A program made the translations under genes and the position numbers. This document shows positions 4,013-10,408 of a stretch of 12,584 nucleotides of DNA, in pieces. Numbering within the stretch: the stretch's first letter is position 1; each line of letters starts with the position of its first letter. Source of the stretch: Okeania sp. (GTDB taxonomy: Bacteria > Cyanobacteriota > Cyanobacteriia > Cyanobacteriales > Microcoleaceae); contig NZ_JAYKGW010000126.1 in assembly GCF_035285525.1 (NCBI RefSeq), positions 1-12,584 of the forward strand, given 5' to 3'. The notes below the pieces were generated by a model. It saw only the letters and a list, made by a program, of their open reading frames with translations, had not been told where the DNA came from and made no database searches.

Positions 4013-4067
4013 TAAAATAGGGAGATGGGAGATTTTTCAGTTATCAGTTAAGTAGGTTAAGTGTTTC

Positions 4068-4100
4068 AGAAACCCGGTTTTTCTAAAAAACCGGGTTTCT
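4068..4100 (+). terminator. near-perfect 33-nt palindrome AGAAACCCGGTTTTT-CTA-AAAAACCGGGTTTCT 56 nt after the leuS stop; candidate terminator or dispersed palindromic repeat
   Basis: A 15-bp stem (4068-4082 with 4086-4100) and a 3-nt loop. A third half-copy AAAAACCGGGTTTCT lies at 4108-4122. There is no clean U-tract after the full stem, so terminator function is uncertain. Confidence 0.4.
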
Positions 4101-4173
4101 AACTGGGAAAAACCGGGTTTCTAATTGTAAATTTTTTCACCTACCTATTTACTCATCTCAGTATTAACAAAAT

Positions 4174-4357: not shown

Positions 4358-4613
4358 AAATGCTCACATATTAACAAATAAATTTGAAGAAACAATTATT
4401 TGACATTTTTATAGATATAATTTTAGACTCTATCCTAACCACTCTTCAACTTAAAAAAATATCTGAAGATAACACAATCTTTCACTTATAACGGCAATTA
4501 TAAACCATAGTTAGTCCAGAATATACAAAAGTAATTAAGCAACTAAGTCAAATTTGTGATAAAACGATAGAATTATAAGCCATAGTATCTGACCACATAA
4601 TCTGAAAATTACC

Positions 4614-4854
4614 ATGAGTGAAACAAACAACGAATTAGTCGAAAATATGCCCAGGGAACAAAGAGTTGGACAACTACGCAACTTAATTGAAACCTTGCAT
4701 ATAGCTGATGAAGTGGCCAGCAAAGGCTATCTAATCACTAGCTCTGAACTGGCAGACTTAATGGACATCAATGCTAGTGCAGTTACTAGCCGTGGAGACC
4801 ATTGGGTATGGCGCAACTGGGTTGTGTCTAGAGTTCGTCGTGAAGGAAACCAAA
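4614..4854 (+). CDS. exon 1 of a small (89 aa when spliced) HTH-like conserved hypothetical protein interrupted by a group II intron
   Basis: ATG at 4614. Translation is MSETNNELVENMPREQRVGQLRNLIETLHIADEVASKGYLITSSELADLMDINASAVTSRGDHWVWRNWVVSRVRREGNQ. The stretch ITSSELADLMDINASAVTSRG looks like a helix-turn-helix. The ORF-track tail SAIRFC-stop (to 4874) is read-through into the intron, which starts with GTGCG at 4855. Confidence 0.7.
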
Positions 4855-4918
4855 GTGCGATTCGTTTCTGCTAAAAATTATGGTCATGTAGCACTACGTA
4901 AATAGGTTAGGACATTTA

Positions 4919-5278
4919 TAAATGCTCAAACTAAGTCAGGAATTATTTTTGACTTTTGACTTTTAACTTGCCCGTAGGAAATAGTTGAAGACATTTATCA
5001 ATCAGGATTTACCCATAGACCACATATATAGTGTCAAAAACTATAACGTTATAGTTTTTAAACTCCACATATAGTAGCTTTGCGTAAGTTCTGTAAATGC
5101 TCAAACTAAGTCAGGAATTATTTTTGACTTTTGACTTTTAACTTGCCCGTAGGAAATAGTTGAGGACATTTATAAATCAGGATTTACCCATAGACCTATA
5201 TATATAGTAGCTTTGCGTAAGTTCTGTAAATGCTCAAACTAAGTCAGAGATTAATGCATGACTTTTGAATTTTAACTT
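4919..5278 (+). repeat. degenerate tandem array (units start at 4919, 5094 and 5227; periods 175 and 133 nt) inside the intron 5' region
   Basis: Each unit starts TAAATGCTCAAACTAAGTCAG and ends GACTTTTGA(C/A)TTTTAACTT. That end is followed by GCCCGTAGGAAATAGT (4970, 5145) or by GTGCGTAGCGCTATAGT (5279). Unit 1 carries an extra 24-nt perfect palindrome AAAAACTATAACGTTATAGTTTTT (5036-5059) flanked by CCACATATA(TA)GT direct repeats. Confidence 0.85.
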
Positions 5279-5355
5279 GTGCGTAGCGCTATAGTACCAA
5301 AATGTGAGCAGAGTAAGGCCATTAGCCTTATAACTAAATGACCTTGGAGGTGAGA

Positions 5356-5362
5356 TTCCTTC
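5356..5362 (+). other. candidate EBS2 (TTCCTTC)
   Basis: Exact reverse complement of exon-1 nucleotides 4842-4848 (GAAGGAA). It lies in the loop of an imperfect hairpin (ACCTTGGAGG ... CCGCCCAGGT). Its distance to EBS1 (about 230 nt) is larger than usual, so this call is tentative. Confidence 0.45.
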
Positions 5363-5590
5363 CGCCCAGGTGCAGGGTTGACAGCATCACCCCTACGGTA
5401 GCGACTAGCCATCAATCCGTAAAGCGGGGTGAAAAGGTGGTAAAGCTAACAGCTTAAGTTGGTTCCCATCAAGCAAAATACCCATTGGATAGCTATAGTG
5501 CGAAGATGTGAGAGAAGCGTCGTCACGTTCAACCAGTGAAATAAGCTGTGGCACTGGAGCCAAAAGGCAAAGGATAGGGAGTTAGCGAGA

Positions 5591-5597
5591 TTTGGTT
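5591..5597 (+). other. candidate EBS1 (TTTGGTT) in a hairpin loop
   Basis: Exact reverse complement of the last 7 nt of exon 1 (AACCAAA, 4848-4854). It is presented in a 15-nt loop closed by GTTAG (5581-5585) and CTAAC (5601-5605). Confidence 0.7.
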
Positions 5598-5701
5598 CGA
5601 CTAACCAGCACTTCCCCTAAACCCGGCGCAAAGCATCATCCTAAAGGTATATAAATAAGGTCATTTGGAACGAAGTAACCCATGAAAAACTCTTTTTTTG
5701 A

Positions 5702-5764
5702 GCTTTCAGCAATCAGCTTTCAGCAGAAGAAGTCAGAAGTCATAAGTCAGAAGTCAGAAGTTAA
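5702..5764. repeat. in-phase heptamer (STRR) array: GCTTTCA GCAATCA GCTTTCA GCAGAAG AAGTCAG AAGTCAT AAGTCAG AAGTCAG AAGTTAA
   Basis: Nine consecutive 7-nt units read directly from the sequence, located within the intron upstream of the IEP ORF. Confidence 0.8.
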
Positions 5765-5784
5765 ATTCTTGCTGTGACTATACC

Positions 5785-5843
5785 TGATTGCTGATAACTA
5801 AAAAAGCTGTTAACTAAAAAAGCTGATAACTGATAACTGAATC
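5785..5843. repeat. CTGATAA-type heptamer repeats interleaved with CTAAAAAAG
   Basis: The sequence reads CTGATTG CTGATAA CTAAAAAAG CTGTTAA CTAAAAAAG CTGATAA CTGATAA CTGAATC. Confidence 0.7.
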
Positions 5844-5900
5844 AAGTAGGTGCTAACCGTATGTTTGATTGGGAGGGATTGTGTCAGAAGCAAAAGCACT

Positions 5901-5949
5901 TAATGGATAATGAGTAATGAATAATGAATAATGAATAATGAATAATGAG
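5901..5949. repeat. heptamer array TAATGAA x7 (with variants TAATGGA and TAATGAG)
   Basis: Seven in-phase 7-nt units. Confidence 0.85.
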
Positions 5950-5992
5950 TAGTTTTCACTACTCTAATTATAAATTAGACAACCTCTGGGTG

Positions 5993-6034
5993 TTAATTAT
6001 TAATTATTAATTATTAATTATTAATTATCAATTT
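5993..6034. repeat. heptamer array TTAATTA x5 plus a degenerate sixth unit
   Basis: Units fall at 5993, 6000, 6007, 6014 and 6021, then TCAATTT. The array ends about 60 nt before the IEP start codon. Confidence 0.85.
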
Positions 6035-6092
6035 AGGGTATGCAGACGGACACACGGTGATTAGGAATGTAGAGTTTGAGTAAGTAATATAT

Positions 6093-7586
6093 ATGTCTAA
6101 TACGAGTTTAAAGACTACGGGGGAATGGAAGGAATGGCGCAATATTAACTGGTTAAAGGTTGAGCGTCGAGTCTTCAAGTTACAAAAAAGAATCTACAAT
6201 GCCTCTCAACGTGGTGATGTTATTGCAGTTCGTAAACTCCAAAAAATGTTGCTCAAATCCTGGTATGGCAAGTTGTTAGCCGTGCGCAGTAGTTTATCTA
6301 GATTAAAACCTAACCCCCCAACCCCCTTAAGTGATACCGTTGGGGGAGAAAGGCTCCCCTCTCCTTGCAGGAAAGGGGTTGGGGAAGAAGTATTCATTTC
6401 TGAAACTTACCCACAAAATAAATCTAGACATCCTAGTAGGGTTAATCAAAGTAGCCAGGGTGAAAAAATAGCTGCAGTTGGTAGTATGAAATCATTGTCT
6501 CCAGAAAAATGTTTTGCCTTGGCGAAAAGATTGAAACTAAATAAGAAAGTTAAACCTGTAACCAGCACTGTTGAAGACTTTGCCAGGCAAATACTTGTCA
6601 AGATAGCTCTAGAAAAACAATGGGAACCCAAGTTTCATATTGATTCTCATGGGTTGATGCTAGGGAAATCATGTCAGGATACTATAGAAGCAATTGTTAA
6701 TTGTGTCAAGTTTCAGCCTAAATATGTACTTAAAGCTGATATCACTAACTGTTTTGACTGTCTTGACAATGAACAACTTTTACAAAAATTAGATACCTAT
6801 CCGACTTTACGCAAACAAATTAGGGTTTGGTTAAAAGATAGGAAAAAGTTGTTTTTAACAGATGAAGTTATTTCTCCACTACTGGTAAATATAGTTTTCT
6901 TTGGTATAGAAAAACAAATCAAATATTATGCTGAAACACTTAATAATAAATGTGAAAGTTTAAGTTTGATTCGTTATGGAAATAGCTTGGCGATCGCTCA
7001 CAAAAATATTGAGGTAATTCAAAAGTGCCAAGATATAATTACAGAATATTTATCTGAATTATTTGGGGAATTAAAGCCAAGTCAAATCAGAATTTATCAC
7101 ACACTAAATAAGTGTGGTGAAGAAAAAGCTGGATTTGAGTTTTTAGGATTTAATATCAGACAATATCAGGTGAGTAAAAACCAAAGTAAGCTAGGTTTTC
7201 AAACCAAAATTAAACCAAGTAAGGAAAGTATCAAAATTCATTATTGTCAAATTGCTGAGGTGATAGATAAACATAAATCTGCACCACAAATTGCCTTAAT
7301 CAGAAAACTCAATCCTCTTGTAAAAAATTGGGTAAATTATTACTCAAAATTTGTGAGTAAGAAAACTTTCCACGATGTGGATAGTTTAATATTCCAAAAA
7401 CTTTGGGTTTGGGCAAAAAGAAGACATTCTAATAAAAATAACCATTGGATTTGTCAAAAATATTGGCAAACTATTGAGGGGAAAAATAGGGAATTTTCTG
7501 GTAGTAGCAAGAATGGCAATCAAGTTAGATTATTGAGACACGGAGACTGGATTTATTGGAGCAAAAAAAAGGCACTGAATATTTAA
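6093..7586 (+). CDS. group II intron-encoded protein with a degenerate RT domain (maturase-like, probably RT-inactive, no En domain)
   Basis: RT-0-like N-terminus: WKEWRNINWLKVERRVFKLQKRIYNASQRGDVIAVRKLQKMLLKSWYGKLLAVR. Remnants of RT2-RT7: ILVKIALEKQWEPKF, KYVLKADITNCFD, VISPLLVNI, SLIRYGNSLAIAH, FEFLGFNIRQY. Well-kept domain X: LIRKLNPLVKNWVNYYS ... LWVWAKRRH. The ORF sits in the intron between domains I-III and V. Confidence 0.85.
   Translation: MSNTSLKTTGEWKEWRNINWLKVERRVFKLQKRIYNASQRGDVIAVRKLQKMLLKSWYGKLLAVRSSLSRLKPNPPTPLSDTVGGERLPSPCRKGVGEEVFISETYPQNKSRHPSRVNQSSQGEKIAAVGSMKSLSPEKCFALAKRLKLNKKVKPVTSTVEDFARQILVKIALEKQWEPKFHIDSHGLMLGKSCQDTIEAIVNCVKFQPKYVLKADITNCFDCLDNEQLLQKLDTYPTLRKQIRVWLKDRKKLFLTDEVISPLLVNIVFFGIEKQIKYYAETLNNKCESLSLIRYGNSLAIAHKNIEVIQKCQDIITEYLSELFGELKPSQIRIYHTLNKCGEEKAGFEFLGFNIRQYQVSKNQSKLGFQTKIKPSKESIKIHYCQIAEVIDKHKSAPQIALIRKLNPLVKNWVNYYSKFVSKKTFHDVDSLIFQKLWVWAKRRHSNKNNHWICQKYWQTIEGKNREFSGSSKNGNQVRLLRHGDWIYWSKKKALNI
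6297..6428. repeat. 126-nt in-frame insertion in the IEP gene, bounded by TCTAGA direct repeats and containing a GC-rich palindromic element
   Basis: TCTAGA occurs at 6297-6302 and 6423-6428, which is 126 nt or 42 codons apart. Inside, CCCCAACCCCCTT (about 6316-6328) pairs with AAGGGGTTGGGG (6373-6384), and there is an inner hairpin GGGGAG-AAAGG-CTCCCC. The insertion splits the conserved ...LLAVR | RVNQ... junction of RT-0. Confidence 0.6.
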
Positions 7587-7695
7587 TTCAAAAGATAAAA
7601 ATAGGACTTAAACAACTAAATAATAAATGGAGTTTATTCTCCTAATTATTATTTTTCTAGTTATAGTAATCCTAAATAGGTTGTAAGATTTTATC

Positions 7696-7751
7696 GTAGG
7701 GGTTTGGAGACCAAACCCAAGCGCCAATGGATTTGGAAACCAAACCCCTAC
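7696..7751. repeat. GC-rich multi-hairpin palindromic element GTAGGGGTTTGG ... CCAAACCCCTAC in the intron 3' of the IEP ORF
   Basis: A 12-bp terminal inverted repeat (7696-7707 with 7740-7751). Inner hairpins are GGTTTGG-AGA-CCAAACC and TTTGG-AAA-CCAAA. Confidence 0.65.
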
Positions 7752-7915
7752 AGTTTTTTCTCACAAATTATTTGAGATTGCTATACTAAATTTAGTTTTT
7801 ACTTAAGTCCTAAAAAAGACAAAGTGCTAACTGTAATTCATCAACATTACTACAATGTCAAAACTGTTAATAACGACAGTAGAGGTACTCTGTTAATTAG
7901 AGTTTAATCACTGAG

Positions 7916-7949
7916 GAGCCGGATGAGGTGAAAGTCTCACGTCCGGTTT
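7916..7949 (+). ncRNA. group II intron domain V
   Basis: The 34-nt sequence GAGCCGGAU-GAGGU-GAAA-GUCUC-AC-GUCCGGUUU has the AGC catalytic triad at positions 2-4, a GAAA tetraloop and a 2-nt AC bulge on the 3' strand. This matches the canonical domain V architecture. Confidence 0.9.
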
Positions 7950-7950
7950 T

Positions 7951-7990
7951 GAAGACGAGCAGTTCTGGTGATGGAATTGCTTAGTTTAAC
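7951..7990 (+). ncRNA. group II intron domain VI with candidate branch-point A at 7983
   Basis: The helix pairs 7953-7965 with 7974-7987, around an 8-nt loop TGGTGATG. A7983 is the single bulged base, 7 nt upstream of the proposed 3' splice site (...AAC | TTCTC). Confidence 0.7.
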
Positions 7991-8019
7991 TTCTCTGGCA
8001 ATTAGAAAGAGTAGATTAA
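7991..8019 (+). CDS. exon 2 of the intron-interrupted small HTH-like protein (completes codon A|TT, then LWQLERVD, stop)
   Basis: Joining 4854 to 7991 gives AAC CAA ATT CTC TGG CAA TTA GAA AGA GTA GAT TAA. Total length is 270 nt (89 aa plus stop). The boundary rests on domain VI geometry and on the frame. Confidence 0.65.
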
Positions 8020-8060: not shown

Positions 8061-8108
8061 AGCGATCGCTTACTTTTTTAGTTGAGGAGCGATCGCTTAC
8101 TTTTTTTA
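8061..8108. repeat. two copies of AGCGATCGCTTACTTTTTT(T) (HIP1 palindrome plus T-run)
   Basis: Copies at 8061-8080 and 8088-8108, about 40 nt after the exon 2 stop. The palindrome is too short for a convincing terminator stem. Confidence 0.7.
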
Positions 8109-8746: not shown

Positions 8747-10408
8747 TTATGCTGGTTTAGCATAGACTCCCATCAATTCTAGAGTATCCTTAATGTTGAG
8801 AAGCAATTCTTGTTCAATGTTGAGGTATTCAAGTGAATCTATGGTTAGAACATAGGCAAACAACTCAAGCTCGATTGTCTCATTGTTCAAGTTAGTGAGA
8901 CTGACTTTTTCCTCATTAAGTTTTGGATGCTTCGTGAACATACTTCGTAGATTTTCCATAATTTCTGGTAAACTATTATGGGCAATCTCGTAGTTTAAAA
9001 CAACAGTATGCTTGAAAACATACTTATCGCGCCTACTATGATTAACAATCTGAGATGTCGAAACTACCGTATTGGGGACAGTAATAAGGGTGCGATCTTC
9101 CCTCCGAATTAAAGTTCCCTGTAAACCGATATCCTCTATTGTTCCTGTCACACCACCTAGCTCACAAAAATCCCCGATCTGCACCGAACGATTAATAAAT
9201 AAAGTCAAACCACCCACCATATTTTCTATATATGGTCTCACTCCTAAACCAATAGCAATGCCACCAACTCCCAAGCTCGCTAAAATTGGGCCTACAGCTA
9301 TACCAATTTCTGCACTACCATAATAAAAGACTATTAATGCTGCCAAAATTCCTAGCAGATCAAATCCATGACGAGCAATAATTGCTTGAAGTGACTTTTC
9401 TTCAACATGAGACGTATTAGCGATGACATAGCTACCAATGCCATTGAACACCATAAAAACTAACCAACCTAAAACCAAAGCTTCTAAAATAGTTGCTATT
9501 ATCAATAGATTCTCTAAAATTTTACCCGTAATGTTTAATAGTTCATTAACCAGGAACTGCCAAAAGATAATCATCCCCAGAGCTAAAAGCGGTAGCAATA
9601 ATCCTAACCATGCCTTTTGCTTGCGATCAATAGCAGTATAATAACGTTTCACAAAAAGTCGCATTGCCAAAATTTTAGCAATCAGCAATAAAGTGATTGT
9701 CACTAGGCTAAACCATTGCCAGAGAGTCTGTCCATACACCAGTATAGTTGTCCACTTTGGCAGCCAATTACTCCATTTAGGGGGTAGGAGGCTGCCAGGG
9801 GTACTAATATAAAAGGAGTAGAAATTAGGTGAAGTTTTCCATATATTTGATTGATTGTAGGGTAAATTTTTGATCTCTTGATAAAATGTTTTGAGGCGTT
9901 CGACTGTGTCAGTGGAGAAGAGAAATTCTCCTTCATTATAACCTTCTTTAACCAACTCAATGGTAATCTTGCTCTTGGGAACATTCCAACGAGTTATGGA
10001 TTTTGCTGCAACAGTTTGTTCGTTAGGAATTTGGCTGACTGGAGGAAGGCCAACGCGGTCTAACACCTCTTTGAGTAATAATGCAGATTCTATACCAACA
10101 TCTTTACGATCAATAGGGGCAACTTTTTCAAGATTTAAGGTTTGAAGAGCCCTATTAAAAGCCAAATCTGCATCATAGCCTTTTTTTCGCACCTCTGGTG
10201 AGTTCCTGAAACCGCTTTCCTGCTTTGTCTGTTTTTCGGCTTCCTTGAGCAGGACATAAGCCTTATTCATATTTACAATAAATTCCCTGAGAGTGTTATA
10301 TGGACTGGTGGTAATAGGTGGTGCGAGGGGAGTATCGCTTGTATTATTGCCAATAACAGCATACTGACTTAGGAGAATGATAGCAAAAACAACTATCCCT
10401 TGTAACAA
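8747..10408 (-). CDS. MscS-family mechanosensitive ion channel protein with a large N-terminal extracytoplasmic domain
   Basis: 553-aa ORF with several TM helices at about residues 225-390. The Gly/Ala-rich pore-helix-like segment IGIAVGPILASLGVGGIAIGLG is followed by ENMVGGLTLFINRSVQIGDFCELGGVTGTIEDIGLQGTLIRREDRTLITVPNTVVSTSQIVNHS, which is the MscS beta-domain signature. The only in-frame start after the upstream TAA (10417..10415) is TTG at 10408, so the start is uncertain. Confidence 0.85.
   Translation of the reverse strand: MLQGIVVFAIILLSQYAVIGNNTSDTPLAPPITTSPYNTLREFIVNMNKAYVLLKEAEKQTKQESGFRNSPEVRKKGYDADLAFNRALQTLNLEKVAPIDRKDVGIESALLLKEVLDRVGLPPVSQIPNEQTVAAKSITRWNVPKSKITIELVKEGYNEGEFLFSTDTVERLKTFYQEIKNLPYNQSNIWKTSPNFYSFYISTPGSLLPPKWSNWLPKWTTILVYGQTLWQWFSLVTITLLLIAKILAMRLFVKRYYTAIDRKQKAWLGLLLPLLALGMIIFWQFLVNELLNITGKILENLLIIATILEALVLGWLVFMVFNGIGSYVIANTSHVEEKSLQAIIARHGFDLLGILAALIVFYYGSAEIGIAVGPILASLGVGGIAIGLGVRPYIENMVGGLTLFINRSVQIGDFCELGGVTGTIEDIGLQGTLIRREDRTLITVPNTVVSTSQIVNHSRRDKYVFKHTVVLNYEIAHNSLPEIMENLRSMFTKHPKLNEEKVSLTNLNNETIELELFAYVLTIDSLEYLNIEQELLLNIKDTLELMGVYAKPA

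What the first reader, a model, noticed from the sequence alone, without database searches (positions are those of the whole stretch)
6093..7586. Intron-encoded protein has lost the RT active site and En domain but stays open for 497 codons: a MatK-like maturase-only IEP in a cyanobacterium?
I compared the ORF with the consensus of bacterial and chloroplast-like group II IEPs as I remember it. The RT1 motif (RPLGIPT) is missing; the text runs KPVTSTVEDFARQILVKIALE. SYGFRPGRS has become SHGLMLGKS. The GTPQGG that precedes VISPLL is deleted (LFLTDEVISPLLVNI). The catalytic YADD box reads YGNS (SLIRYGNSLAIAH). The protein also ends shortly after domain X, with no DNA-binding or HNH endonuclease domain. 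In contrast, RT-0 and domain X (LIRKLNPLVKNWVNYYS ... WAKRRH) are well kept. The ribozyme domain V and domain VI are canonical. The frame is uninterrupted for 1.5 kb of very AT-rich DNA, even across a 126-nt repeat insertion. That pattern fits selection for maturase (splicing) function after loss of mobility, which is the path taken by plastid MatK. It fits simple decay less well.
Basis: partly seen in the sequence, partly recalled or inferred. Interest (0 to 1): 0.7.

Follow-up and report, generated by a model that had tools for sequence, protein, structure and literature searches.

The report
RT-dead maturase in fixed cyanobacterial intron
This Okeania gene sits inside a self-splicing group II intron and encodes a protein that has lost its reverse-transcriptase active site and DNA-cutting domain, yet selection has kept it across at least four cyanobacterial genera, most likely as a splicing helper, which is rare in bacteria and parallels chloroplast MatK.

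Summary
ORF 6093-7586 (497 aa) is a group II intron-encoded protein. It has a 17-aa deletion of RT1, a 6-aa deletion of GTPQGG, YGNS in place of YADD, and no HNH domain. RT0 and thumb/X are intact.

The intron spans 4855-7990, not from 5279. It interrupts a conserved 89-aa gene nine codons before the stop. It is the orthologue of Tr.e.I7, the outer intron of the published Trichodesmium twintron, which splices in vivo.

All clade members found (Okeania, Trichodesmium, Dapis, Hydrocoleum) share the lesions. Wherever the contig reaches the intron's 5' end, the host gene and insertion site are the same.

Selection is clear. dN/dS is 0.24 in RT0, 0.24 in X and 0.51 in RT1-7, against 0.13-0.21 in intact relatives. 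Nine of 10 ORF indels preserve the frame, against 23 of 71 in non-coding intron. Ribozyme and exon 2 are conserved, and IEP dS roughly tracks host-gene dS.

Best reading: an immobile, vertically inherited intron whose protein survives as a maturase. Maturase activity itself is inferred, not shown. A 2015 review lists one bacterial precedent (O.i.I2). This is a new member of a known kind.

The parts
4614..4854 (+). Exon 1 of the host gene, a Tery_4732+ homologue (80 codons plus the first base of an Ile codon). The last six codons of the mechanical ORF 4614-4874 (SAIRFC) are intron read-through.
   Evidence: Exon 1 is 94-97% aa identical upstream of the IEP in all 10 genome loci. The in-silico spliced product is an 89-aa homologue of the RT-PCR-verified T. 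erythraeum product, with the same junction and an identical C-terminus REGNQ|ILWQLERVD. Host-gene omega is 0.01-0.04.
4855..7990 (+). Group II intron (3136 nt, IIB/chloroplast-like), orthologue of Tr.e.I7. It starts with GUGCGAUUC and ends with ...UUUAAC.
   Evidence: The 5' and 3' junction contexts are identical in 11 orthologues. GUGCGAUUC and the splice sites are described for Tr.e.I7 in PMC4649490. Ribozyme core distance is 0.03-0.14, against synonymous 0.10-0.89.
4888..5290 (+). Window-specific insertion of tandem repeats 33 nt into the intron, at the base of domain I.
   Evidence: Orthologues L001, L003 and L005 join window 4887 directly to 5291; L002 and L004 have one repeat unit. Repeat families with 175- and 133-nt spacing.
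5356..5362 (+). EBS2 candidate UUCCUUC, complementary to exon positions -13 to -7 (GAAGGAA).
   Evidence: Sequence inspection and the orthologue alignment. The pairing is inferred.
5412..5413 (+). Unoccupied twintron site. Orthologues L001, L083 and L123 carry a 2.4-2.5 kb inner intron exactly here.
   Evidence: The inner introns are 82-83% identical to one another.
5591..5597 (+). EBS1 UUUGGUU in a stem-loop, complementary to the last 7 nt of exon 1 (AACCAAA).
   Evidence: Invariant in all 11 orthologues. The pairing is inferred.
6093..7586 (+). Intron-encoded protein ORF, 497 aa, in domain IV. It is RT-degenerate and lacks En.
6093..6287 (+). RT0 / RVT_N region (aa 1-65), well conserved.
   Evidence: Pfam RVT_N 69.9 bits. 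Omega 0.24 over aa 1-66. 86% retention of residues invariant in intact IEPs. pLDDT 75-88.
6288..6437 (+). 150-nt MITE-like palindromic insertion, in frame and stop-free (aa 66-115), between RT0 and the RT1 remnant.
   Evidence: Absent from 9 of 11 orthologues, present in L001. Terminal inverted repeats at 6290-6304 and 6421-6435, inner hairpin at 6316-6328 and 6372-6384. RNA MFE -46 kcal/mol. Predicted disordered.
6566..6567 (+). Site of the 17-aa RT1 deletion (after aa 158).
   Evidence: Shared by all 23 clade proteins and absent from all intact relatives aligned.
6866..6867 (+). Site of the GTPQGG (RT4) deletion (after aa 258).
   Evidence: Subclade B keeps a degenerate QMARGG at this position.
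6975..6986 (+). Former RT active site: YGNS in place of YADD.
   Evidence: The clade variants are YGNS, YGGN, YAGN, YADN, YAGD, YGDS, YGSS, YASN and SAGN. None has both aspartates.
7158..7466 (+). Thumb / domain X (maturase domain), aa 356-458.
   Evidence: Pfam GIIM 72.9 bits. Omega 0.24. 86% retention. pLDDT 92-95.
7467..7586 (+). Short C-terminal tail (remnant of the start of the D domain) and the stop codon. The HNH domain is absent.
   Evidence: Retention of D/En invariant residues is 0.14.
7602..7812 (+). Window-specific insertion in the 3' flank of domain IV, with a palindrome at 7697-7708 and 7740-7751.
   Evidence: L003 and L005 join window about 7601 to about 7813. Sequence.
7913..7990 (+). 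Domains V and VI of the ribozyme, ending one base before exon 2.
   Evidence: Rfam RF04357 and RF00029. The same hits occur in all 10 orthologues. DV is nearly invariant.
7991..8019 (+). Exon 2: TT CTC TGG CAA TTA GAA AGA GTA GAT TAA, giving (I)LWQLERVD and the stop.
   Evidence: The amino-acid sequence is identical in all 11 orthologues, with synonymous changes only. It matches the published spliced mRNA.

Best explanation
ORF 6093-7586 encodes a catalytically dead derivative of a chloroplast-like-class group II intron reverse transcriptase. It is retained as a splicing cofactor (maturase) for its own intron.

The intron (4855-7990) interrupts a small, highly conserved cyanobacterial gene nine codons before its stop.

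Proposed mechanism:
1. The gene is transcribed with the intron.
2. The protein is translated from domain IV.
3. Through its preserved RT0 and thumb/X surfaces, and what remains of the palm, it binds the intron RNA and stabilises the active ribozyme fold.
4. The ribozyme, whose DV, DVI, EBS1 and EBS2 are intact, ligates exon 1 to exon 2. This restores an Ile codon and the C-terminus ILWQLERVD.

Without RT1, the RT4 PQG loop, both YADD aspartates and the HNH nuclease, the protein cannot carry out target-primed reverse transcription. The intron is therefore immobile and is inherited vertically. It has stayed at this one site in every clade locus where the site could be checked (Okeania, Trichodesmium, Dapis and unnamed MAGs); no Hydrocoleum locus was fetched.

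Shown: the lesions, purifying selection on the protein, the fixed site, co-divergence, ribozyme and exon conservation, and (published) in vivo splicing of the Trichodesmium orthologue.
Inferred: that the selected function is maturase activity, and that RT activity is zero.
For: - Lesions shared by all 23 clade proteins.
- Ancestry: the nearest relatives are intact cyanobacterial RT/maturase/HNH proteins of about 590 aa at 43-47% identity.
- Fold: best sequence match is 6me0_C (E 5.6e-47), and best fold matches are 8fli_B and 6me0_C, the intron-bound T. elongatus maturase.
- Selection on the protein: omega is 0.24 in RT0, 0.51 in RT1-7 and 0.24 in X, with every CI below 1. Intact relatives give 0.21, 0.13 and 0.14. 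Omega(RT) minus omega(X) has CI 0.11-0.45.
- Residue retention is 0.86 in RT0 and X, against 0.46-0.54 in RT1/2, RT4 and RT5.
- Frame preservation: 9 of 10 ORF indels against 23 of 71 in non-coding intron, p=7.7e-4. A 150-nt mobile-element insertion is tolerated only in frame.
- Neutral simulation: P of staying stop-free is at most 0.01.
- Same host gene and junctions in 10 genome loci, L081/L082, L116 and L123. One locus per genome.
- IEP dS (0.30 within A, 0.10 within B, 0.89 between) roughly tracks host-gene dS (0.33, 0.18, 0.64).
- Exon 2 is conserved at the protein level with synonymous changes, so splicing must work in each lineage.
- The ribozyme core evolves 3-6 times more slowly than synonymous sites. 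DV/DVI are intact everywhere.
- The T. erythraeum orthologue (449 aa, cluster of P0014, YGGN) lies in an intron shown to splice in vivo.
- Literature on active-site changes: YAGD in place of YADD cut TeI4h mobility about 10^5-fold at 37 C (PMC2882425). A YAHH mutant cannot perform TPRT (PMC12584367).
Against: - No experiment shows that this protein promotes splicing, or that the ribozyme needs it. The intron might self-splice in vivo.
- Pfreundt & Hess could not detect a lariat or circle for the host intron, so its splicing pathway is unclear.
- Omega of 0.24 in X is about twice that of intact relatives, so constraint is somewhat relaxed everywhere.
- Two clade entries are truncated (P0017 lacks RT0, P0021 lacks X). 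Retention is therefore not universal, or those assemblies are imperfect.
- The RT3 aspartate is conserved, and three members keep one aspartate at RT5 (YAGD, YADN, YGDS).
- NG86 on AT-rich DNA is approximate.
- Immobility is inferred from distribution in draft genomes and MAGs, not from complete genomes.
Confidence: 0.75

Rival explanations
1. Trans-acting general maturase. The RT-dead protein is kept mainly because it also splices other, ORF-less group II introns in these intron-rich genomes, as MatK does in plastids. Its own intron is only one client.
For: T. erythraeum has 17 splicing group II introns, 10 of them without an ORF. Another Trichodesmium IEP (RIR-3) acts in trans on dnaN introns (Meng et al. 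2005, as cited). Persistence of the ORF across genera would be easier to explain with several clients.
Against: The known general maturase of Trichodesmium is a different protein, described as the RT of a full-length intron. Among 80 metagenome loci sharing this DV, only three were clade-type. Two of them carry the same host exon 1 and the third begins inside the intron. No ORF-less relatives were seen.
Confidence: 0.15
2. Plain decay. The ORF is a pseudogene of a once-mobile IEP that happens still to be open.
For: The RT1-7 region is about four-fold relaxed relative to intact IEPs. Small repeats are inserted throughout the intron, one of them inside the ORF. Two truncated clade members exist.
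Against: Omega is significantly below 1 in every region. Nine of 10 indels preserve the frame, against one third in non-coding intron. The probability of staying stop-free under neutrality is at most 0.01 per lineage, yet all 11 CDSs extracted are intact. RT0 and X retain 86% of invariant residues.
Confidence: 0.03
3. Still a working reverse transcriptase, or a mobile element using non-canonical catalytic residues or an RT supplied in trans (for example by the inner intron of the twintron).
For: The RT3 aspartate is retained. RVT_1 still scores above Pfam's threshold. A mobile inner intron with an HNH-bearing IEP coexists in some lineages. TeI4h with YAGD keeps trace mobility at high temperature.
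Against: Both RT5 aspartates are gone in the window. The RT1 and PQG segments that hold the dNTP and template (established RT biochemistry) are deleted. There is no En domain. The intron is found only at one orthologous site, one copy per genome, and IEP dS roughly tracks the host gene. The window has no inner intron.
Confidence: 0.04
4. The reading frame is kept for translation as such (ribosome transit through domain IV to assist folding or protect the RNA), or for overlapping RNA structure, and not for the protein product.
For: Synonymous divergence is low in the first 66 codons in both the clade and intact relatives, which suggests RNA-level constraint there.
Against: Selection acts on amino-acid identity. 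It follows a domain-specific pattern that matches the known RNA-binding modules RT0 and X. Those domains are predicted to fold with high confidence.
Confidence: 0.03

Closest known systems
Tr.e.I7, the host (outer) intron of the Tr.e.I7/Tr.e.I8 twintron in Tery_4732+ of Trichodesmium erythraeum IMS101 (Pfreundt & Hess 2015, PMC4649490)
   Same: Orthologous. It has the same host gene, the same insertion point (between the first and second base of the Ile codon), the same 5' GUGCGAUUC and the same exon 2 (ILWQLERVD). The IEP belongs to the same clade (IMS101 protein ABG53691.1, 449 aa, clusters with P0014 at 66% identity to the window protein). Splicing was demonstrated in vivo.
   Different: The window (Okeania) has no inner intron, so it is a single intron, whereas the paper reported no intron in this gene outside Trichodesmium. 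The window copy carries extra repeat insertions, including one inside the ORF. The paper does not discuss loss of the RT active site or selection on the IEP.
O.i.I2 of Oceanobacillus iheyensis (ML-class intron in radC), described in Zimmerly & Semper 2015 (PMC4424553) as the only known bacterial intron with a degenerate IEP
   Same: A bacterial group II intron in a conserved protein-coding gene. Its IEP lacks YADD and other RT motifs but remains an open frame, and it is inferred to be maturase-only.
   Different: It belongs to a different IEP/ribozyme class (ML, not chloroplast-like/IIB) and a different phylum. It is a single reported instance. Here a whole clade spanning at least four genera shares the lesions, with measured purifying selection. 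O.i.I2 itself was not examined here.
MatK (trnK intron, land-plant and charophyte plastids); also MatR and nMAT of plant mitochondria
   Same: The same evolutionary trajectory and proposed mode of action. It is an IEP that lost RT catalysis and En, keeps domain X, sits in a fixed, vertically inherited intron of a needed gene, and is under purifying selection as a splicing factor.
   Different: It is not a close relative: no MatK_N Pfam hit, and the intron is IIB/chloroplast-like in a protein-coding gene rather than IIA in tRNA-Lys. MatK is unalignable across RT0-4, whereas this protein keeps RT0, RT2-3 remnants and RT6-7. MatK serves several introns in trans, which is untested here.
T. elongatus TeI4h IEP (PDB 6ME0, 8FLI) and intact cyanobacterial chloroplast-like-class RT/maturase/HNH proteins
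   Same: These are the closest solved structure and the closest intact sequence relatives (43-47% identity). They have the same domain order, RT0-RT-X-D.
   Different: They keep RT1, PQG, YADD (YAGD in native TeI4h) and D/En, and they are mobile.
RIR-3 intron-encoded general maturase of T. erythraeum (Meng, Wang & Liu 2005)
   Same: The same group of organisms. It is an IEP whose maturase function matters for host-gene expression.
   Different: It is described as the RT of a full-length intron acting on related ORF-less introns. It lies in a different intron and host gene. The primary paper was not available to me, so the state of its RT motifs was not checked.

Membership tests
Group II intron-encoded RT/maturase (Pfam RVT_N + RVT_1 + GIIM; NCBIfam TIGR04416) | RVT_N, RVT_1 and GIIM domains in this order | tested here: met
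   RVT_N 69.9 bits, RVT_1 46.1 bits (cut-off 29.6), GIIM 72.9 bits. RVT_1 and GIIM hit all 22 clade members and RVT_N hits 21.
Group II intron-encoded RT/maturase (Pfam RVT_N + RVT_1 + GIIM; NCBIfam TIGR04416) | Reaches the equivalog cut-off of TIGR04416 | tested here: not met
   145.6 bits against a cut-off of 300.
Group II intron-encoded RT/maturase (Pfam RVT_N + RVT_1 + GIIM; NCBIfam TIGR04416) | Catalytic YxDD in RT5, together with the RT1 and RT4 (PQG) motifs | tested here: not met
   YGNS at RT5, RT1 block deleted, GTPQGG deleted.
Group II intron-encoded RT/maturase (Pfam RVT_N + RVT_1 + GIIM; NCBIfam TIGR04416) | Encoded in domain IV of a group II intron with canonical DV/DVI | tested here: met
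   The ORF lies between the DI-DIII homology and DV/DVI. DIV boundaries were not folded here.
Group II intron-encoded RT/maturase (Pfam RVT_N + RVT_1 + GIIM; NCBIfam TIGR04416) | RT activity and retrohoming | not testable with these tools
   Requires biochemical and mobility assays. The distribution argues against mobility.
Tr.e.I7 orthologous intron (Tery_4732+ host intron) | Same host gene and identical insertion point | tested here: met
   The spliced product is an 89-aa homologue of the published Tery_4732+ product, with the junction at the same codon position and the same C-terminus ...REGNQ|ILWQLERVD.
Tr.e.I7 orthologous intron (Tery_4732+ host intron) | 5' GUGCGAUUC, IIB features, and an IEP of the same clade as the IMS101 protein | tested here: met
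   P0014/P0121 cluster at 66% identity to the window protein.
Tr.e.I7 orthologous intron (Tery_4732+ host intron) | Twintron arrangement (inner intron Tr.e.I8 in domain I) | tested here: not met
   The window is contiguous across 5412/5413. L001, L083 and L123 are occupied at that site.
MatK (Pfam MatK_N PF01824; trnK IIA intron) | Sequence membership (MatK_N domain) | tested here: not met
   No MatK hit at E<=1 for the window protein, or at E<=0.001 for the 22 clade members.
MatK (Pfam MatK_N PF01824; trnK IIA intron) | Located in a IIA intron of tRNA-Lys | tested here: not met
   The host is a protein-coding gene. DV matches a chloroplast-like IIB-type family, and Tr.e.I7 is classified IIB2.
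MatK (Pfam MatK_N PF01824; trnK IIA intron) | RT catalysis lost, domain X kept, under purifying selection, fixed intron (functional analogy) | tested here: met
MatK (Pfam MatK_N PF01824; trnK IIA intron) | Acts in trans on several introns | not tested
   No genome-wide intron census or assay was possible. A limited metagenome screen found no extra copies.
Bacterial degenerate-IEP introns (O.i.I2 type, Zimmerly & Semper 2015) | Bacterial intron in a conserved gene; IEP lacks YADD and other RT motifs but stays an open frame | tested here: met
Bacterial degenerate-IEP introns (O.i.I2 type, Zimmerly & Semper 2015) | Common descent with O.i.I2 (ML class) | tested here: not met
   The nearest relatives are cyanobacterial chloroplast-like-class IEPs. 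This is an independent origin. O.i.I2 itself was not aligned.

The most novel reading that the evidence does not exclude
The RT-dead protein may be more than a private cofactor. It could be a trans-acting general maturase for the many ORF-less group II introns of Trichodesmium, Okeania and related genomes. That would be a free-living bacterial counterpart of MatK or nMAT: a retroelement protein domesticated into a shared splicing factor. It would be an experimentally accessible intermediate on the proposed route from mobile group II introns to a common splicing machinery.
Probability: 0.15. Interest if true: 0.8.

Novelty: new member of a known kind. Interest (0 to 1): 0.55.

Why it matters
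Group II introns whose protein has lost RT activity but survives as a maturase are the rule in organelles. They are considered almost absent from bacteria. [quoted passage not shown]

Here the same degenerate protein, in the same fixed intron, has been kept by purifying selection across at least four genera of marine filamentous cyanobacteria. Synonymous divergence between the two main lineages is up to about 0.9. The organelle-type trajectory (loss of mobility, retention of splicing function, residence in a conserved gene) therefore does occur and persist in free-living bacteria, and in the phylum and intron class that gave rise to plastid introns.

One orthologue lies in a culturable strain, T. 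erythraeum IMS101, where splicing is already documented. The step from retroelement protein to dedicated splicing factor can therefore be tested directly.

The result also extends the published host intron beyond Trichodesmium. It suggests the outer intron may have been immobile when the mobile inner intron invaded it, although an ancestral twintron followed by inner-intron losses is not excluded.

Tried and rejected
1. I first took GTGCG at 5279 as the intron's 5' end. This was rejected: orthologues join window 4887 directly to 5291, and the conserved 5' end is GTGCGATTC at 4855. The 5279 motif lies in a degenerate copy of a tandem repeat.
2. A sequencing frameshift hiding YADD was rejected. 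The alignment is continuous in frame on both sides, and the lesions recur in independent assemblies.
3. My early rough estimate (84% nt against 70% aa identity) suggested omega near 1. A proper NG86 calculation gave 0.39.
4. The first AlphaFold run, with 22 sequences, was poor (pLDDT 56.6). I repeated it with 89 sequences (pLDDT 70.2).
5. The metagenome scan with the exact DV sequence was not lineage-specific. This DV is a generic chloroplast-like-class consensus, and only 3 of 80 loci were clade-type. It therefore says little about ORF-less relatives.
6. An exact search for the core of the in-ORF insertion in the fetched loci found nothing. The family of that element remains unidentified.
7. 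Meng et al. 2005 and Liu et al. 2003 are not held in the library. What I say about RIR-3 rests on later papers that cite them.
8. The possible EBS2/IBS2 covariation at exon position -8 did not hold up.
9. Membership of the groEL-type specialised IIB1 lineage (5'-subterminal insertion, insertion near stop codons) was considered. I did not adopt it. The basal DI insertion here is variable and absent in some orthologues, and the intron is classified IIB2.
Full report
**1. The observation**

ORF 6093..7586 (+, 497 aa) is present. It is identical to a deposited Okeania sp. protein annotated "group II intron maturase-specific domain-containing protein" (P0001). Pfam finds RVT_N (69.9 bits), GIIM (72.9 bits) and only a weak RVT_1 (46.1 bits), with no HNH. 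The NCBIfam equivalog for group II RT/maturases scores 145.6 bits against a cut-off of 300.

I aligned the protein to the T. elongatus IEP of PDB 6ME0 (E 5.6e-47) and to seven intact relatives.
- A 17-aa block containing RPLGIPT (RT1) is deleted after residue 158.
- SYGFRPGRS reads SHGLMLGKS.
- GTPQGG (RT4) is deleted after residue 258.
- YADD reads YGNS (nt 6975-6986).
- The protein stops about 40 residues after domain X.

Rfam finds canonical domains V and VI at 7913-7990. The corrections are minor. The in-ORF insertion is 150 nt rather than 126. A stub of the D domain remains. The RT3 aspartate is retained.

**2. What the element is**

A protein search returns a tight clade of 23 proteins (P0001-P0023) from Okeania, Trichodesmium, Dapis, Hydrocoleum and unnamed marine cyanobacterial MAGs. 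Excluding two truncated entries (P0017, P0021), they are 438-520 aa long. All named genera belong to the family Microcoleaceae. After this clade come hundreds of intact RT/maturase/HNH proteins of about 590 aa at 43-47% identity.

All 23 clade members share three lesions:
- the RT1 deletion
- loss of both YADD aspartates (variants YGNS, YGGN, YAGN, YADN, YAGD, YGDS, YGSS, YASN and SAGN)
- loss of HNH

One subclade (B) still has a degenerate QMARGG where GTPQGG was, and a longer D remnant. The subclade containing the window (A) has deleted these. Degeneration was therefore stepwise.

Ten genome loci were fetched and compared with the window. In every one, the 86-aa ORF 4614-4874 lies just upstream at 94-97% aa identity. 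Nucleotide homology runs from window 4378 to 4887 and then jumps directly to 5291. The intron therefore begins at GTGCGATTC (4855), not at the GTGCG at 5279, and 4888-5290 is a window-specific repeat insertion.

The intron ends at 7990. Exon 2 (7991-8019) supplies TT CTC TGG CAA TTA GAA AGA GTA GAT TAA.

This is the arrangement Pfreundt & Hess (2015, PMC4649490) verified by RT-PCR for Tery_4732+ of T. erythraeum. It has the same junction inside an Ile codon, the same C-terminus (I)LWQLERVD, the same mis-annotated SAIRFC tail and the same 5' GUGCGAUUC. The window's intron is thus the orthologue of Tr.e.I7, the outer ("host") intron of their twintron.

The IMS101 protein ABG53691.1 (449 aa, the length given in the paper) clusters with P0014, a clade member reading YGGN.

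L001 (Trichodesmium), L083 and L123 carry the inner intron exactly at window 5412/5413. The window does not.

**3. Is the ORF under selection?**

All 11 orthologous CDSs are intact. Nei-Gojobori dN/dS for pairs within subclades, with bootstrap 95% CIs:

| Region | Clade omega (95% CI) | 21 pairs of intact relatives |
|---|---|---|
| RT0 | 0.24 (0.14-0.44) | 0.21 |
| RT1-7 | 0.51 (0.39-0.64) | 0.13 |
| thumb/X | 0.24 (0.15-0.36) | 0.14 |
| overall | 0.39 (0.32-0.49) | 0.15 |

The catalytic core is about four-fold relaxed. RT0 is unchanged, and X is only mildly relaxed. The RT-versus-X difference has a CI of 0.11-0.45.

Retention of residues that are at least 95% invariant in 67 intact IEPs:

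| Region | Fraction retained |
|---|---|
| RT0 | 0.86 |
| thumb/X | 0.86 |
| RT6-7 | 0.77 |
| RT3 | 0.66 |
| RT4 | 0.54 |
| RT5 | 0.53 |
| RT1/2 | 0.46 |
| D/En | 0.14 |

In an unguided nucleotide alignment, 9 of 10 gap runs in the ORF are multiples of three. The exception lies in the variable 3' tail. In the non-coding intron the figure is 23 of 71 (Fisher p=7.7e-4).

A neutral simulation gives a probability of 0.01 that the frame stays stop-free at 5% divergence, and 0.001 at 10%.

The 150-nt insertion at 6288-6437 has terminal inverted repeats, an internal G/C hairpin and a short target duplication, so it is MITE-like. It lies between RT0 and the RT1 remnant in a segment predicted to be disordered. 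It has been tolerated only as an in-frame, stop-free insertion. Plain decay is excluded.

**4. Is the intron functional and immobile?**

- DV/DVI are intact and end exactly at exon 2 in all orthologues.
- EBS1 (UUUGGUU, 5591-5597) is invariant and complementary to the end of exon 1. EBS2 (5356-5362) matches exon positions -13 to -7.
- Ribozyme-core distances (0.03-0.14) are several-fold below synonymous distances.
- Exon 2 is translated only after splicing. It is identical at the protein level in 11 lineages while carrying synonymous changes. The host gene has omega 0.01-0.04. Splicing must therefore work in each lineage.
- IEP dS (0.30 within A, 0.10 within B, 0.89 between) roughly tracks host-gene dS (0.33, 0.18, 0.64).
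- Every clade locus that reaches the intron's 5' end has the same host gene: 10 genome loci, L081/L082, L116 and L123. L087 and L083 begin inside the intron.
- Each genome contributed one locus.

This is the signature of a fixed, vertically inherited intron.

**5. Mechanism**

The AlphaFold model built on 89 sequences is confident for RT0 (pLDDT 75-88), most of the palm, and thumb/X (92-95). The insertion and the RT1/RT2 fingers remnant fall below 50. Its best structural matches are the intron-bound T. elongatus maturase complexes 8FLI and 6ME0.

From established knowledge of group II RNPs, RT0 and the thumb/X are major contact surfaces for the intron RNA. RT1, the PQG loop and YADD form the dNTP and template site.

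The most likely reading is a protein that still binds and folds its intron but cannot polymerise DNA or nick a target. Published mutants support the second part. YAGD lowered TeI4h mobility about 10^5-fold at 37 C (PMC2882425). A YAHH mutant cannot perform TPRT (PMC12584367).

Maturase activity of this protein is inferred, not demonstrated.

**6. Comparison with what is known**

Degenerate, maturase-only IEPs are a known kind (MatK, MatR and Euglena examples). [quoted passage not shown] I found no paper describing the RT degeneration of Tr.e.I7 or its relatives. The library does not hold subscription journals.

The twintron paper stated that no intron occurs in this gene outside Trichodesmium. 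Newer genomes show the single intron in Okeania, Dapis and related genomes.

The protein is not a MatK family member: it has no MatK_N hit, and the intron class and host differ. It works like MatK but arose independently.

I rate this a new member of a known kind. It is of moderate-to-good interest because it is clade-wide, measurably selected, in the plastid-ancestral phylum, and testable in a culturable strain.

**7. Open points**

Whether the protein also serves ORF-less introns in trans could not be tested. A metagenome scan with the DV sequence proved non-specific.

The insertion's distribution (window, L001, P0002-P0004) does not follow pairwise dS and is unexplained.

Two clade entries (P0017, P0021) are truncated. 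This may be real decay or an assembly artefact.

Noticed in passing
window 4888-5290: About 400 nt of tandem repeats (units spaced 175 and 133 nt) are inserted 33 nt into the intron, at the base of domain I. They are absent in L001, L003 and L005, and L002 and L004 have one unit. T. erythraeum has a 62-nt insertion there. The position recalls 'subdomain Ia' of the groEL-type IIB1 introns (PMC12584367). The third copy mimics a 5' splice site (GTGCG at 5279).
   Followed up: partly
window 5412/5413; L001 909-3410; L083 1-2453; L123 2715-5154 (-): The window has an empty twintron site. Three orthologous loci carry the same inner intron here, 82-83% nt identical over 2.5 kb, after ...GACTAGCCAT|GTGCGATGTG. 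In L083 the inner IEP is called as 583 aa with HNH. L083's outer IEP is of the divergent subclade-B type, so either the twintron is old or the mobile inner intron re-homes into this site.
   Followed up: partly
window 4614-8019 and loci L002-L009, L053, L081, L116: The single (non-twintron) form of this intron occurs in Okeania, Dapis and unnamed marine cyanobacterial MAGs, and a Hydrocoleum clade protein (P0017) exists. The 2015 twintron paper stated that no intron occurs in this gene outside Trichodesmium.
   Followed up: yes
window 6288-6437: A MITE-like 150-nt element (TIRs at 6290-6304 and 6421-6435, target duplication of about GTAG) is inserted in frame in the IEP. It is shared with L001 and P0002-P0004, but those sequences do not group together by pairwise dS. 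The alternatives are precise losses, repeated insertion at one site, or recombination. No other copy was found in the fetched loci.
   Followed up: partly
window 4855-4874: The last six codons (SAIRFC) and the stop of the mechanical ORF 4614-4874 are intron sequence. The same mis-annotation was noted for Tery_4732 in GenBank.
   Followed up: yes
window 7602-7812 (palindrome 7697-7708 / 7740-7751): A window-specific insertion of about 210 nt lies in the 3' flank of domain IV and contains a perfect-looking GGGGTTTGG...CCAAACCCC palindrome. It is probably another small mobile repeat.
   Followed up: no
window 5690-5850 and 5903-6035: Short tandem repeats (AGTCAGA-type heptamers, AATAATG and TTAATTA runs) lie inside the intron upstream of the ORF. 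The second block is absent from all orthologues.
   Followed up: no
window 6093-6290 and the same region of intact relatives: Synonymous divergence in the first 66 codons is about half that of the rest of the ORF, in both the degenerate clade and intact IEPs. This is consistent with an overlapping RNA constraint such as the DIVa protein-binding and translation-control site.
   Followed up: no
window 6990-6997, 8062-8069, 8089-8096: HIP1 palindromes (GCGATCGC) occur immediately after the former YADD codons (LAIAH) and twice in a repeated unit just downstream of exon 2.
   Followed up: no
window 4060-4130: Three copies of an AAACCGGGTTT-type hairpin lie downstream of leuS, probably terminator-like or dispersed repeats.
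   Followed up: no
window 8747-10408 (-); L005 6780-7014: An MscS-like channel gene lies between the intron and the DUF547 gene only in the window. Dapis (L005) has just a short remnant, and in L002 DUF547 lies about 0.75 kb downstream with no MscS match between. DUF547 is a conserved downstream neighbour.
   Followed up: no
L001 5380-5541 (C-terminus of the IEP): The Trichodesmium MAG_R02 IEP tail (..NYRNVKTANNGTGGT..) still resembles the very end of the HNH domain of intact IEPs (..HDTKTANDGSxGT..). The En domain was therefore lost by internal deletion.
   Followed up: no
P0017 (Hydrocoleum, 342 aa), P0021 (Okeania SIO1H6, 346 aa): Two clade members are truncated: one lacks RT0 and the other lacks domain X. 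This is either real pseudogenisation in some lineages or an assembly or frameshift artefact.
   Followed up: no
L006 788-953, L007 1042-1205, L009 1630-1795 (-): Cobalamin riboswitches lie upstream of the host gene region in subclade-B Okeania loci, and CbiX is a neighbour in L081.
   Followed up: no
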